Notes: generated from the letters alone by a model not told the origin. A stretch of DNA of 44,482 nucleotides from Limisphaerales bacterium (GCA_046595315.1 JBKJOZ010000220.1:1-44482); one strand, 5' to 3'; shown: positions 39,657 through 41,541, numbered from the stretch's first letter. Numbers and translations: made by a program.

Positions 39657-39768
39657 TGACTAAAAATTACGTTGCCGTTTAAAACCGGGTCAACCTGAAT
39701 CACTTTTAATTCGTGAATTGATTTCGGCGTTGTTATCTGTTCGCCGTTTTTTAGCGAAGGCAGATCGA

Positions 39769-39823
39769 CATGGGGAGGCGTGGCTGCGAATGCGGTGTAA
39801 GCTCGCAGCCACGGCTCCCCATG
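39769..39823. other. Long near-perfect stem-loop (21-bp arms, 13-nt loop)
   Basis: CATGGGGAGGCGTGGCTGCGA (39769-39789) pairs with TCGCAGCCACGGCTCCCCATG (39803-39823) at 20 of 21 positions. No U-tract follows on either strand. Confidence 0.5.
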
Positions 39824-39841
39824 CCGAGGTTGGATGGCACG

Positions 39842-39873
39842 ACAGAAATTATTTTTTCACATTTCTGTTTTTT
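39842..39873 (+). terminator. Plus-strand terminator-like hairpin + T-run
   Basis: ACAGAAAT (39842-39849) / ATTTCTGT (39861-39868), followed by TTTTT. It overlaps the stop codon of the minus-strand 110-aa ORF. Confidence 0.35.
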
Positions 39874-40205
39874 CATGCCGCCTCCGCGAGAAGCGTCTCG
39901 CTGCGGAGGCGGACTTGCTTTTGTTTTTGCAACTGCAAACGAGCGCGTAATGCTTTTTCTTCCAGCAAAGCCGGGAAGAACAAAAGCGGGAACGACGTTG
40001 TCCAAGCTAAAGCTGCGGCGTCGTTGGCGGCACGGCGCAAGGGCGCATTCAATTCCGGCCTCACGGCGTCGTCGAGCAATCGCCGCAACAAGCGGCCTTT
40101 TAATTGTTCGAATTTATCGTCCTGCGTCACCCGAAATGGCGTCGCCAAATCGAAGCGCGTTTCCGTCGCAAATTGCGTCGGTACTGTTTGTTTTCTATTT
40201 TTCAT
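39873..40205 (-). CDS. Orphan 110-aa hypothetical protein (helical, Arg/Leu/Ala-rich)
   Basis: It has the most protein-like composition of three overlapping long ORFs in this GC-richer patch (LLRRLLDDAVRPELNAPLRRAANDAAALAWTTSFPLLFFPALLEEKAL). The ATG at 40205 is preceded by an A-rich leader. No family recognised. Confidence 0.45.
   Translation of the reverse strand: MKNRKQTVPTQFATETRFDLATPFRVTQDDKFEQLKGRLLRRLLDDAVRPELNAPLRRAANDAAALAWTTSFPLLFFPALLEEKALRARLQLQKQKQVRLRSETLLAEAA
39878..39930 (+). terminator. Plus-strand GC-rich hairpin followed by a T-rich tract
   Basis: CCGCCTCCGC (39878-39887) / GCGGAGGCGG (39903-39912), followed by ACTTGCTTTTGTTTTTGC. It lies inside the 3' end of the minus-strand 110-aa ORF. 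Confidence 0.3.
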
Positions 40206-40248
40206 TTTTTCTTTCTAGCTCGCCGTTCTCCATGAACGGCAAATTCTT

Positions 40249-40290
40249 AAAACAAAAAACCCACGATTGACTGGCAATCGTGGGTTTTTA
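40249..40290 (-). terminator. Orphan intrinsic terminator (bidirectional architecture) ~45 nt upstream of the 110-aa ORF
   Basis: 10-bp stem CCCACGATTG (40260-40269) / CAATCGTGGG (40275-40284) with a 5-nt loop. It is flanked by AAAACAAAAAA (which gives U6GU4 on the minus strand) and TTTTT on the plus side. Confidence 0.55.
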
Positions 40291-40323
40291 AAATCTTTGG
40301 TTGTATCGTTTAGAAGATTTTTG

Positions 40324-40336
40324 CCACGTTGCCAGT
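40324..40336 (-). promoter_or_regulatory. Candidate anti-terminator strand of a minus-strand leader RNA
   Basis: Minus-strand ACUGGCAACGUGG pairs with CCACG-A-UUGCCAGU (the 5' arm plus loop of the 40260-40284 terminator) through 13 Watson-Crick pairs and one bulge. Confidence 0.4.
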
Positions 40337-40521
40337 AACCTGGTGCAAACGCCAAATCGGCATCGCTACGGAGCGACCGGAGACGCGCAGGCTCAATTTT
40401 ACTGTGAACGTGTTTTTCATCTAAGCGGCTGAAAGAAACAGCAGGGTGTCCCATTTGTCAAAAGAATTTTCTGCCGCATCAGACTTGAGCGACATCTTTT
40501 GGATGCTAGTATTTTCTTGTG

Positions 40522-41541
40522 ATGGGCAACTCAAACGAAGGCAACAAACCGTTAAAAATGGTGAGTTGTGGCGCATGCGGCGCAAAGAATTTTATTCCAG
40601 GAGACTTGCCGCAATTTGAAACCATTGCCTGTTTGAAGTGCGGCCATCCGGTGATGTTGCCAGTGACTTTTCGGCAATTTGAATTGCGCGAAGTGATTGC
40701 GTCCGGTGGCATGGGAACGGTTTTCAGCGCGTTCGACGTGAATCTTCAACGTGCCGTTGCGTTGAAAATGATGAAGCGCGAAATGCTCGAGGATCCGGAA
40801 GTTTTGGAGAGCTTTTACCGTGAAGCCCGCGCCGGCGCCGCGCTCAATCACACCAACATCATTCACATTTACACGTTCGACGAATTTGAAGGTCAACCCT
40901 ACCTCGTCATGGAACTGGCCAACAATGGCAGTCTCGATACGCGGATCTCCGCAGAAACCCGCGTGCCGGAGCTCGATGTTCTTGATGTGGGAATCAAAGT
41001 CGCCTCCGCGCTGGCCACAGCGCTCAAACACAATCTCCTCCATCGCGACATCAAGCCCGGAAATATTTTGTTCAATAGCGATGTTCCACCCGAGCCCAAG
41101 CTCATTGATTTCGGTTTGGCGCGCGCGGCGGAAGTGGACGTGGACCCCTCTAGTGAATCCAGTGTTTGGGGAACGCCTTACTATGTCGCCCCGGAAAAAA
41201 TTAAGCGTGAACGAGAAGATTTTCTGTCCGACATGTATAGCCTGGGTGGAACGCTTTACCACGCCTTGACCGGTCACGTCCCATTCGAAGCACCCACGGT
41301 GGAAGATTTGGTTTCGGCACATGTTCACACGCCACTCACGCCGCCCAATCAGGTTGTGTTGGAGATTACACAAACGACGAGCGATGCGTTGGTTCGCGCG
41401 ATGGCTAAAGAACCGGCGAACCGCTTTCAATCCTACGACGAATTGATTCTCGTCCTCACCGCCGCGCGCAGCGAACTCCTTGTCAACCGATACAACCAGC
41501 CTGCTCCTGACAGTAAAAAAAGCTGGTGGCGCGGTTCATGA
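40522..41541 (+). CDS. Ser/Thr protein kinase (Hanks type) with an N-terminal zinc-ribbon
   Basis: CGACGAKN...CLKCGHP (C..C-x17-C..C), then GGMGTVF, AVALK, HRDIKPGNILF, DFGLAR and GTPYYVAPE. I prefer the ATG at 40522 over the adjacent GTG at 40519. Confidence 0.8.
   Translation: MGNSNEGNKPLKMVSCGACGAKNFIPGDLPQFETIACLKCGHPVMLPVTFRQFELREVIASGGMGTVFSAFDVNLQRAVALKMMKREMLEDPEVLESFYREARAGAALNHTNIIHIYTFDEFEGQPYLVMELANNGSLDTRISAETRVPELDVLDVGIKVASALATALKHNLLHRDIKPGNILFNSDVPPEPKLIDFGLARAAEVDVDPSSESSVWGTPYYVAPEKIKREREDFLSDMYSLGGTLYHALTGHVPFEAPTVEDLVSAHVHTPLTPPNQVVLEITQTTSDALVRAMAKEPANRFQSYDELILVLTAARSELLVNRYNQPAPDSKKSWWRGS

What the first reader, a model, noticed from the sequence alone, without database searches (positions are those of the whole stretch)
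40206..40470. Orphan terminator plus a perfectly matched upstream anti-terminator strand ahead of a 110-aa orphan gene: candidate novel riboswitch or attenuator
Read on the minus strand, a 10-bp hairpin (CCCACGAUUG-CCAGU-CAAUCGUGGG, 40284->40260) followed by UUUUUUGUUUU sits only ~45 nt upstream of the ATG at 40205. No coding gene lies upstream of it on that strand, because the neighbour at 40522 is divergent. A terminator in the middle of a divergent intergenic region needs an explanation. Positions 40336->40324 (ACUGGCAACGUGG) are complementary to the 5' arm plus loop of that terminator, with 13 Watson-Crick pairs and one bulged A. That helix is longer and more GC-rich than the terminator helix, so the two helices are mutually exclusive. 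This is the classic logic of an expression platform. The 5' part of the anti-terminator strand can also close into a small local hairpin (UUG-CA-CCAG GUUA CUGG CAA). An AU-rich 8-bp hairpin (40288-40321) separates the elements. A 36-codon uORF (ATG 40420, stop 40310-40312, MKNTFTVKLSLRVSGRSVAMPIWRLHQVTGNVAKIF) runs exactly across the anti-terminator strand, so ribosome-dependent attenuation is an alternative to ligand sensing. By eye the leader matches none of the riboswitch classes I know (TPP, SAM, ZTP, fluoride, guanidine I-III, c-di-GMP, preQ1, Mn2+).
Basis: seen in the sequence. Interest (0 to 1): 0.6.

Follow-up and report, generated by a model that had tools for sequence, protein, structure and literature searches.

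The report
Leader-peptide transcription attenuator, Verrucomicrobia
A short translated mini-gene overlapping a switchable stop signal sits before a 110-aa gene of unknown function in one order of Verrucomicrobiota; it is most likely a classical ribosome-sensing attenuator, of a family I found in no database, whose signal is unknown.

Summary
On the minus strand there is a conserved promoter-like site, a 36-codon ORF (40420-40310), a strand inside it (40336-40324) that pairs with the 5' arm and loop of a strong intrinsic terminator (40289-40255), and then the 110-aa gene.

The cassette recurs in about 100 loci of one verrucomicrobial order (Pedosphaerales-like MAGs):
- The small ORF is kept in about 97% of loci, at 32-40 codons.
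- Its stop codon always lies 16-27 nt before the terminator.
- Its peptide sequence is poorly conserved (31% mean column identity).
- The antiterminator pairing holds in 91% of cells across 83 leaders.
- One position covaries across all four segments: start of the ORF, antiterminator strand and both terminator arms.

Rfam has no match. The 110-aa gene is not an orphan: it has at least 391 homologues, all hypothetical.

The best reading is a ribosome-mediated transcription attenuator, not a ligand riboswitch. The leader has no run of regulatory codons, so the signal is probably general translation lag. This is inferred, not shown.

The scan found the same element family earlier in another genome (e1-2281294); my independent tests agree with it. 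It is a new member of a known kind, of moderate interest.

The parts
40456..40461 (-). -35-like hexamer TTGACA of the leader promoter
   Evidence: Read. A TTGACA-like hexamer is present in 80/82 homologous loci, lying 33-39 nt before the small-ORF ATG in 74 of them. Inferred promoter; no transcript data.
40433..40438 (-). -10-like hexamer TTTCTT, 17 nt after the -35. It predicts a start near 40426 and a 5' UTR of only about 6 nt.
   Evidence: In other lineages the same position reads TATAAT, CATAAT, TTTAAT or TTTATT, while the spacer varies in sequence. Inferred.
40310..40420 (-). 36-codon leader ORF (MKNTFTVK...IWRLHQVTGNVAKIF, stop TAA 40312-40310)
   Evidence: An ORF of 32-40 codons ending 16-27 nt before the extended terminator is found in about 97/99 loci. 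Stops are TAA, TGA or TAG. Other frames hold such an ORF in 1 and 5 of 83 loci. Peptide mean column identity is 31%. pN/pS is 0.49 against 0.27 for the downstream gene.
40399..40412 (-). Segment 1 (CACGUU..CAGUAA, codons 3-8), which pairs with segment 2 as the anti-antiterminator
   Evidence: MFE folds. 74% of cells are paired across 83 leaders, against 27-55% when the partner is slid. Pair 16:140 reads AU 61, GC 6, GU 4. The MFE of the ORF RNA joins its two ends in 62/83.
40340..40396 (-). Inner helices of the long hairpin formed by the ORF RNA. The Trp-Arg codons UGGCGU pair with GCGC of codons 11-12, and there is a central small hairpin.
   Evidence: Folds. ORF RNA alone has mean z = -2.2 against shuffles, and 47/83 are below -2. 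Sequence differs between lineages while a hairpin remains (alignment). No formal pair count was made for these helices.
40324..40336 (-). Segment 2, the antiterminator strand ACUGGCAACGUGG (codons T-G-N-V-A)
   Evidence: It pairs with the terminator 5' arm plus loop at -19.4 kcal/mol. 91% of cells are paired in 83 leaders, against 28-40% when slid. Pair 140:200 reads UA 39, UG 32, CG 7. The best duplex partner of the arm sits at this place in 75/83.
40290..40321 (-). AU-rich hairpin enclosing the stop codon (AAAAUCUU / AAGAUUUU)
   Evidence: Present in the folds. At least 4 pairs span the stop codon in 63/83 loci, but the mean energy (-4.1) is barely below shuffles (-3.4). Weak support.
40249..40289 (-). 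Intrinsic terminator: A-tract, 10-bp GC-rich core (40284-40275 / 40269-40260), loop CCAGU and U-tract UUUUUUGUUUU
   Evidence: 14 consensus pairs, 8 of them with compensatory changes and almost none broken across 83 loci. Loop length varies from 3 to 8 nt. The loop bases CC are kept in over 90% of loci and pair with GG of segment 2.
40222..40240 (-). Second hairpin GCCGUUC-AUGGA-GAACGGC between the terminator and the ribosome-binding region of the 110-aa gene
   Evidence: Present with other sequences in the same genus and some other lineages, but not universal. Role unknown.
39873..40205 (-). 110-aa gene under the leader: a conserved hypothetical protein with a disordered N-terminus (motifs RF-E/D and PFR) and three helices
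   Evidence: Homologous gene follows the leader in all loci examined. 391 homologues, no Pfam or NCBIfam family. AF2 pLDDT 85. No significant fold match.
40519..41541 (+). Divergent zinc-ribbon Hanks-type Ser/Thr kinase (context, not part of the switch)
   Evidence: Pfam Pkinase, E = 2.9e-43. It is the divergent neighbour within 800 nt in 40 of 66 loci that have enough upstream sequence.

Best explanation
This is a ribosome-mediated (leader-peptide) transcription attenuator that controls the 110-aa gene.

Proposed sequence of events:
1. Transcription starts from a conserved sigma-70-like promoter only a few nucleotides before the AUG of a 36-codon leader ORF.
2. The ORF RNA folds back on itself, so that codons 3-8 (segment 1) hold codons 28-32 (segment 2).
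3. Segment 2 can instead pair with the 5' arm and loop of the terminator (segment 3). That prevents the terminator hairpin (3:4).

Three outcomes follow:
- No ribosome: 1:2 persists, 3:4 forms, and transcription stops about 45 nt before the gene.
- A ribosome follows the polymerase closely and reaches the stop codon, which lies 12 nt after segment 2. It covers segment 2 and the terminator forms again.
- A ribosome has opened the ORF hairpin but lags or stalls upstream of segment 2. Then 2:3 forms as soon as segment 3 emerges, and the polymerase reads through into the 110-aa gene.

The leader has no run of codons for any one amino acid, and its peptide is poorly conserved. The switch therefore most likely reports general translation lag or stalling, not one amino acid.

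Shown: the elements, their conservation, the conserved reading frame and the covariation.
Inferred: the promoter, the order of folding, and the signal.
For: Conservation. The cassette of small ORF, terminator and 110-aa gene is found in 8/8 genomes of the genus, in about 12 other families of the order and in 78/80 further loci. The terminator motif was not found in about 398 genomes of other orders and classes of the phylum.

Translation.
- The ORF is kept in about 97% of loci at 32-40 codons, across ten different distances between the ATG and segment 2 (80-110 nt, steps of three).
- All three stop codons are used, at a fixed distance before the terminator.
- The other two frames hold such an ORF in only 1 and 5 of 83 loci.
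- Third codon positions vary about 1.5 times more than first or second positions.

The peptide is not the product that matters.
- Mean column identity is 31%, against 59% for the 110-aa protein.
- pN/pS is 0.49 against 0.27, and pS is lower (0.24 against 0.33).
- The conserved residues (T4-F5, W-R, G-N/I-V) coincide with the paired segments.
- Codons GGC and GUG are almost fixed at their third positions.

Structure.
- Terminator: 14 pairs, 8 with compensatory changes.
- Antiterminator: 91% of cells paired, against 28-40% when slid.
- Helix 1:2: 74% paired, against 27-55% when slid.
- Four-way covariation at columns 16/140/200/220: A-U-A-U 30, A-U-G-C 31, G-C-G-C 6. C at column 140 occurs only with G at column 200, and with G at column 16 wherever that column is aligned. 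This changes Val to Ala and Thr to Ala in the peptide.
- The terminator loop bases CC are conserved and pair only in the antiterminator.
- The duplex partner of the terminator arm sits at the same place in 75/83 loci, at -19.3 against -12.8 kcal/mol for shuffled upstream RNA.
- In the nascent RNA that lacks the 3' arm, the antiterminator is the MFE structure in 77-79/83. With a ribosome placed at the stop codon, the terminator forms in 83/83.

No room for a separate promoter. Only 12-60 nt separate the terminator from the start codon in most loci.
Against: - No transcript data exist. No RNA run was listed, so the start site, termination and read-through are all inferred.
- There is no run of regulatory codons, and the downstream gene has no known link to amino acids or translation, so the signal is a guess.
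- At equilibrium the full-length leader keeps the terminator whatever upstream part is blocked (78-83 of 83). The switch must therefore be kinetic.
- Without a ribosome, the nascent RNA also prefers 2:3 over 1:2 thermodynamically (77/83). The 'no translation means termination' branch thus depends on 1:2 forming first.
- The compensatory G-C-G-C state may stem from as few as one or two events on the tree.
- Five closely related leaders carry a mismatch (A or G) at column 140.
- The peptide is under some constraint (pN/pS 0.49). The terminal Phe before the stop is kept in 64/83 without a clear RNA reason.
- TTGCCA in the terminator, followed by a T-rich stretch, resembles the leader's own promoter. 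A promoter embedded in the terminator cannot be excluded.
Confidence: 0.6

Rival explanations
1. The small ORF is a gene in its own right, encoding a 36-aa micro-protein. The terminator is a leaky stop that sets the ratio between an abundant short mRNA and a rarer read-through mRNA for the 110-aa protein, as after precursor-peptide genes. On this view the complementarity to the terminator has no regulatory role.
For: - The ORF is conserved in frame and length.
- pN/pS of 0.49 is below 1.
- Trp, Gly-x-Val and a terminal Phe recur.
- The pair always travels with the 110-aa gene, also at a second locus in one bin.
Against: - The peptide is only 31% identical on average, while the neighbouring protein is 59%.
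- Its conserved residues lie exactly on paired RNA segments and change together with the terminator arm (Val to Ala with U to C, Thr to Ala with A to G).
- Synonymous sites are more constrained than in the neighbouring gene.
- A leaky terminator gives no reason for its loop bases and stem sequence to be conserved across families, nor to match the coding sequence.
- No Pfam or NCBIfam family was found.
Confidence: 0.14
2. A non-coding regulatory RNA: either a cis-acting riboswitch that senses a metabolite, protein or tRNA, or a stand-alone small RNA of about 175 nt with its own promoter and terminator. The reading frame would be incidental, and the 110-aa gene would be transcribed from a promoter overlapping the terminator.
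For: - A conserved promoter-like site and a strong terminator bracket about 175 nt of structured RNA (z = -3.6 to -4.5).
- Alternative pairings are conserved.
- TTGCCA-N17-19-T-rich within and after the terminator resembles the leader's own promoter.
Against: - An incidental frame would not survive in about 97% of about 100 diverged loci with in-frame indels only and a fixed stop position, while the other frames are closed.
- There is no conserved unpaired pocket or junction typical of an aptamer. The middle of the RNA varies in sequence and length.
- Rfam has no match.
- The spacer after the terminator is as short as 12-20 nt in several loci.
Confidence: 0.13
3. The conserved palindrome acts at the DNA level, as an operator for a dimeric regulator (possibly the 110-aa protein) or as a bidirectional terminator serving plus-strand transcripts.
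For: - The inverted repeat is unusually conserved in sequence across families.
- A-tracts and T-tracts flank it on both sides, so it scores as a terminator on both strands.
Against: - Loop length varies from 3 to 8 nt, which changes half-site spacing. Stem positions change in compensating pairs. Both are expected for an RNA hairpin and not for an operator.
- No plus-strand gene ends near it; the genes on its low-coordinate side are on the minus strand.
- This reading does not explain the matching strand inside the ORF, or its covariation.
Confidence: 0.03

Closest known systems
Classical leader-peptide attenuators of amino-acid operons (E. coli trpL, hisL, leuL, thrL, pheL; Rfam RF00513, RF00514, RF00512 and others)
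   Same: A short translated leader ORF; four segments giving 1:2, 2:3 and 3:4 helices; an intrinsic terminator just before the regulated gene; a stop codon placed so that a terminating ribosome masks segment 2.
   Different: - No run of codons for a cognate amino acid.
- The downstream gene is a 110-aa protein of unknown function, not a biosynthetic operon.
- The leader is longer (36 codons), and nearly the whole ORF folds into one long hairpin.
- The predicted 5' UTR is only about 6 nt.
- No Rfam leader family matches above threshold. His_leader scores 25.8 bits against a cut-off of 49, on the terminator only.
Antibiotic- or stall-responsive leader-ORF attenuators found by Term-seq before resistance genes (from my own knowledge: for example leaders of vmlR, lmo0919 and msrD-type ABC-F genes; Dar et al. 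2016).
   Same: A leader ORF without amino-acid codon runs. Read-through is expected when a ribosome stalls within the ORF and frees an antiterminator.
   Different: The regulated gene here is not a recognisable resistance determinant. No inducer is known. The leader peptide shows no known arrest motif.
   Same: By its description it is the same element family: a terminator/antiterminator switch over a conserved 33-38-codon frame, about 90 loci, controlling a 110-aa protein of unknown function.
   Different: It lies on other DNA. I did not see its sequence or alignments.

Membership tests
Leader-peptide (ribosome-mediated) transcription attenuators | A short ORF in the leader that is translated | tested here: met
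   By comparative evidence only. The frame is kept in about 97% of about 100 loci, indels are in-frame, the stop position is fixed, and the other frames are closed. Third-position variation is in excess. No ribosome data.
Leader-peptide (ribosome-mediated) transcription attenuators | An intrinsic terminator between the leader ORF and the regulated gene | tested here: met
   A 15-bp hairpin plus U-tract. 14 pairs, 8 of them with compensatory changes, in 83 loci.
Leader-peptide (ribosome-mediated) transcription attenuators | An antiterminator helix mutually exclusive with the terminator | tested here: met
   91% of cells paired, against 28-40% when slid. Pair 140:200 shows UA, UG and CG. Fixed position in 75/83 loci, at -19.3 against -12.8 kcal/mol for shuffled RNA.
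Leader-peptide (ribosome-mediated) transcription attenuators | An anti-antiterminator (1:2) overlapped by the translated ORF | tested here: met
   74% of cells paired, against 27-55% when slid. G16-C140 occurs in 6 loci, all with G200. The MFE joins the ORF ends in 62/83. Support is weaker than for the other helices.
Leader-peptide (ribosome-mediated) transcription attenuators | A run of regulatory codons for the amino acid made by the operon | tested here: not met
   No amino acid is enriched or repeated. Trp is single and is replaced by Cys in some loci. The downstream gene has no known pathway.
Leader-peptide (ribosome-mediated) transcription attenuators | Termination and read-through that depend on translation of the leader | not testable with these tools
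   No RNA run was listed for this stretch. Term-seq or reporter assays are needed.
Riboswitches (metabolite-binding cis-regulatory RNAs) | A conserved ligand-binding aptamer, independent of translation, upstream of the expression platform | tested here: not met
   No Rfam family is matched. The only RNA upstream of the platform is the conserved ORF, whose middle varies in sequence and length.
Sigma-70 family region 2 (PF04542), considered for the 110-aa protein | Sequence-profile similarity to sigma region 2 | tested here: not met
   Pfam gives no hit at E <= 1 for 52 members. hhalign against 20 sigma region-2 domains of the same genome gives probability 0.14%.
Sigma-70 family region 2 (PF04542), considered for the 110-aa protein | A three-helix fold superposable on sigma region 2 | tested here: inconclusive
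   About ten sigma region-2 chains are among the top 50 VIA-align rows (Z 5.5-7.5, 70-87 residues aligned). Z below 8 is ordinary for helical models. Foldseek finds nothing at E <= 0.001.

The most novel reading that the evidence does not exclude
The leader is a general sensor of translation state. Read-through happens whenever the first ribosome lags behind the polymerase, for example under starvation, ribosome-targeting antibiotics or reduced initiation on a near-leaderless mRNA. It would switch on a 110-aa helical protein specific to this order. That protein would act together with the conserved divergent zinc-ribbon Ser/Thr kinase, for instance as its substrate or as a factor binding RNA polymerase or the ribosome. 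Together they would form an undescribed stress module of Pedosphaerales-like Verrucomicrobiota.
Probability: 0.2. Interest if true: 0.6.

Novelty: new member of a known kind. Interest (0 to 1): 0.45.

Why it matters
- It adds an order-wide conserved leader-peptide attenuator to a phylum where regulatory RNA is little studied. I found no Rfam family or paper covering it.
- It shows the dual constraint clearly. Peptide residues change (Val to Ala, Thr to Ala) to keep RNA pairing, and the terminator's stem and loop are frozen in sequence because they must match a coding segment.
- It gives the 110-aa family of at least 391 hypothetical proteins a first handle. Its expression is gated by translation of an upstream mini-gene, which suggests stress conditions under which to look for a function.
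- For annotation, the 36-codon ORF and the terminator should be marked as a leader, and the 110-aa gene should not be called an orphan.

Tried and rejected
- Rfam, at gathering thresholds and in a permissive search: no family. The His_leader, STnc240 and TEG147 rows are sub-threshold matches to the terminator hairpin alone.
- tRNA/tmRNA scan: nothing.
- RNA-seq evidence: no RNA holder listed.
- Literature search for Verrucomicrobia + leader peptide + attenuation: five papers, none relevant.
- Binding of the 36-aa peptide to the 110-aa protein (complex prediction): no verdict, score 0.00. This is not evidence either way.
- Function of the 110-aa protein:
  - Pfam and NCBIfam: none.
  - PDB sequence profile: only E = 0.19 to TOM22.
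  - Foldseek PDB: nothing at E <= 0.001.
  - ESM Atlas: only verrucomicrobial hypothetical clusters.
  - VIA-align: sigma region-2 look-alikes at ordinary Z, not backed by hhalign.
- Trp-sensing idea (a single conserved Trp codon five codons before segment 2): rejected as general. The Trp is replaced by Cys or shifted in several loci, and its codon is part of an RNA helix.
- 79-aa ORF reading through the terminator: not conserved.
- AU-rich hairpin around the stop codon: present in 63/83 but hardly better than shuffles.
- Second hairpin before the 110-aa gene: not universal.
- RNAalifold on the whole alignment recovered only the terminator. The other helices had to be tested as named structures.
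- Second copy in one bin (G036): it has the same synteny and the bin has 7% contamination, so it may be a second strain and not a paralogue.

Full report
**What is in the window**

All of the following is read on the minus strand.
- TTGACA at 40461-40456, a 17-nt spacer, then TTTCTT at 40438-40433.
- ATG at 40420, opening a 36-codon ORF (MKNTFTVKLSLRVSGRSVAMPIWRLHQVTGNVAKIF) with stop TAA at 40312-40310.
- An AU-rich hairpin around the stop codon (40321-40290).
- An intrinsic terminator: A-tract, CCCACGAUUG, loop CCAGU, CAAUCGUGGG, then UUUUUUGUUUU. The stem is 40289-40255, 15 pairs.
- A second hairpin at 40240-40222.
- A purine-rich ribosome-binding region, then the ATG of the 110-aa ORF at 40205.

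RNAduplex gives 12-13 pairs with one bulge, at -19.4 kcal/mol, against -19.0 for the terminator hairpin. The region folds better than shuffles (z = -4.5 for 291 nt, -3.6 for 186 nt). Rfam has no family for it and there is no tRNA or tmRNA. The caveat is that the antiterminator is not stronger than the terminator.

**Conservation**

- A DNA search of 40 relatives found the region in all 8 genomes of the genus (77-82% identity over about 300 nt). An 85-nt core, running from the antiterminator strand through the terminator, was found in about 12 other families of the order at about 80% identity.
- The 110-aa protein has 391 homologues, all hypothetical and all labelled Verrucomicrobiota, Pedosphaera or Limisphaerales.
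- A scan of species-representative genomes found 256 encoding loci. I took 80 of them.
- Nearly all 80 carry the same terminator 60-90 nt before the gene.
- The terminator motif was not found in about 398 genomes of other orders and classes of the phylum, and it occurs once in the window's own genome.
- One sequence of the 83 used below (L014, from G009) comes from an unpublished genome. No conclusion depends on it, but the counts include it.

**The small ORF is conserved as a reading frame, not as a protein**

Evidence that the frame is kept:
- About 97 of 99 loci have an ATG ORF of 32-40 codons (mostly 35-36) ending 16-27 nt before the extended hairpin.
- The stop is TAA in 42 loci, TGA in 38 and TAG in 3.
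- The distance from the ATG to segment 2 takes ten values from 80 to 110 nt, always in steps of three.
- The two other frames have a comparable ORF in only 1 and 5 of 83 loci.
- The 79-aa ORF that reads through the terminator is not conserved.

Evidence that the peptide itself matters little:
- Mean column identity is only 31%, against 59% for the 110-aa protein.
- For the same genome pairs, pN/pS is 0.49 against 0.27. Synonymous divergence is lower in the small ORF (0.24 against 0.33).
- The few recurrent residues (Thr4-Phe5, Trp-Arg, Gly-Asn/Ile-Val) lie on the RNA segments that pair. The codons GGC and GUG are almost fixed at their third positions.

This is the signature of a leader ORF: what matters is that it is translated and where, with RNA structure superimposed on it.

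**The helices (alignment A2: 83 distinct leaders, 236 columns)**

| Helix | Cells paired | When partner is slid | Notes |
|---|---|---|---|
| Terminator (3:4) | nearly all | not computed | 14 pairs, 8 with compensatory changes |
| Antiterminator (2:3), columns 133-143 with 197-208 | 91% | 28-40% | pair 140:200 is U-A 39, U-G 32, C-G 7 |
| Helix 1:2, columns 14-20 with 136-142 | 74% | 27-55% | pair 16:140 is A-U 61, G-C 6, G-U 4 |

- The four columns 16, 140, 200 and 220 read A-U-A-U (30), A-U-G-C (31) and G-C-G-C (6). C at 140 is found only with G at 200, and with G at 16 wherever that column is aligned. The same change is therefore mirrored in all four segments, at the cost of Val to Ala and Thr to Ala in the peptide.
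- On a tree of the 110-aa proteins the G-C-G-C state needs between one and four events. A seventh leader (L013), with C at column 140 and G at 200 but a gap at column 16, lies in a separate clade. The covariation is real but rests on few events.
- The two loop bases CC of the terminator are conserved in over 90% of loci. They have a partner only in the antiterminator, the GG of the Gly codon.
- The best partner of the terminator arm in the upstream RNA lies at the same place in 75 of 83 leaders. The mean energy is -19.3 kcal/mol, against -12.8 for shuffled upstream RNA.
- The ORF RNA alone folds with mean z = -2.2. Its two ends pair in the MFE of 62 of 83.

**How it most likely works**

Constrained folds show the following:
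- The full-length leader keeps the terminator at equilibrium whatever is blocked (78-83 of 83).
- The nascent RNA that ends before the 3' arm prefers the antiterminator (77-79 of 83).
- A ribosome placed at the stop codon leaves only the terminator (83 of 83).

The switch must therefore be kinetic, as in classical attenuators. The outcome depends on whether segment 2 is free at the moment segment 3 emerges:
- A ribosome that has opened the ORF hairpin but lags upstream of segment 2 gives read-through.
- A ribosome that keeps pace and reaches the stop codon, 12 nt after segment 2, gives termination.
- No ribosome gives termination too, provided 1:2 forms first.

The promoter is inferred from conservation. 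A TTGACA-like hexamer lies 33-39 nt before the ATG in 74 of 82 loci (present at any distance in 80). A variable 17-nt spacer follows, then a -10 position that reads TTTCTT, TATAAT, CATAAT, TTTAAT or TTTATT in different lineages. This predicts a 5' UTR of only about 6 nt. In most loci only 12-60 nt separate the terminator from the start codon of the 110-aa gene, so that gene should depend on read-through.

**What it senses is unknown**

No amino acid is repeated in the leader. The single Trp is replaced by Cys or displaced in some loci, and its codon is part of an inner helix. I therefore favour a sensor of general translation lag or stalling, but this is inference.

**The 110-aa protein**

- The model shows a disordered N-terminus and three helices (pLDDT 85).
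- It has no Pfam or NCBIfam family and no significant PDB match.
- Sigma region-2 domains recur among the structural neighbours, but at ordinary scores and without profile similarity.
- A zinc-ribbon Hanks kinase is its divergent neighbour in 40 of 66 informative loci. This may reflect function or only conserved gene order.

**Rivals**

- A functional micro-protein with a leaky terminator would explain the frame. It would not explain the covariation with the terminator, the frozen synonymous sites or the low peptide conservation.
- A riboswitch or small RNA would not keep a frame open in about 100 diverged loci.
- A DNA operator would not tolerate loop lengths of 3-8 nt.
- A promoter embedded in the terminator (TTGCCA plus a T-rich stretch) cannot be excluded without transcript data.

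**Comparison and novelty**

The mechanism is that of the trp/his/leu attenuators. The defining feature that fails is the run of regulatory codons, and the target is not a biosynthetic operon. In that respect it is closer to stall-responsive leaders before resistance genes, a comparison that rests on my own knowledge and that I did not check in a paper. No Rfam family and no paper that I could find describes it. This scan had already reported what is evidently the same family in another genome (e1-2281294). I read that note after my own tests, and they agree with it.

Verdict: a real, conserved and undescribed member of a well-known class. The switch architecture is well supported. The signal and the target's function are open.

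Noticed in passing
window 40519-41541 (+): The zinc-ribbon Hanks-type Ser/Thr kinase is 60-86% identical across the order. It is the divergent neighbour of the leader cassette in 40 of 66 loci with enough upstream sequence. CitMHS_2 and the KdtA-like gene follow downstream in 28 and 25 of 80 loci. This may be a functional link or only conserved gene order.
   Followed up: partly
window 39762-39828 (-): A long, nearly perfect hairpin lies between the 110-aa gene and the CitMHS_2 transporter gene. It gives a spurious sub-threshold Rfam hit to a plant microRNA precursor (MIR531, 32.9 bits against a cut-off of 70). It has no U-tract and its role is unknown.
   Followed up: no
window 39873-40205 (-): In the AF2 model of the 110-aa protein, about ten of the top 50 structural neighbours are sigma-factor region-2 domains (Z 5.5-7.5). 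There is no profile similarity (hhalign probability 0.14%). This is a lead only.
   Followed up: yes
L039, L052, L057, L059, L065, L068, L083, L091: Public MAG records labelled Saccharimonadales, Acidoferrum, Limnocylindria, Bifidobacteriaceae or Baltobacteraceae carry this verrucomicrobial cassette. They are probably mis-binned contigs or mislabelled bins.
   Followed up: no
L010 (G036:C161) and L124 (G036:C317:6000-7800): One bin holds two copies of the module (kinase, small ORF, 110-aa gene), the C317 copy shown to keep the kinase and KdtA-like gene beside it. The bin is 7.4 Mb with 7% contamination, so the copies may be two strains and not paralogues.
   Followed up: partly
window 40222-40240 (-): The hairpin GCCGUUC-AUGGA-GAACGGC lies between the terminator and the ribosome-binding region of the 110-aa gene. 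It is kept with other sequences in the genus and some other lineages, but is not universal.
   Followed up: partly
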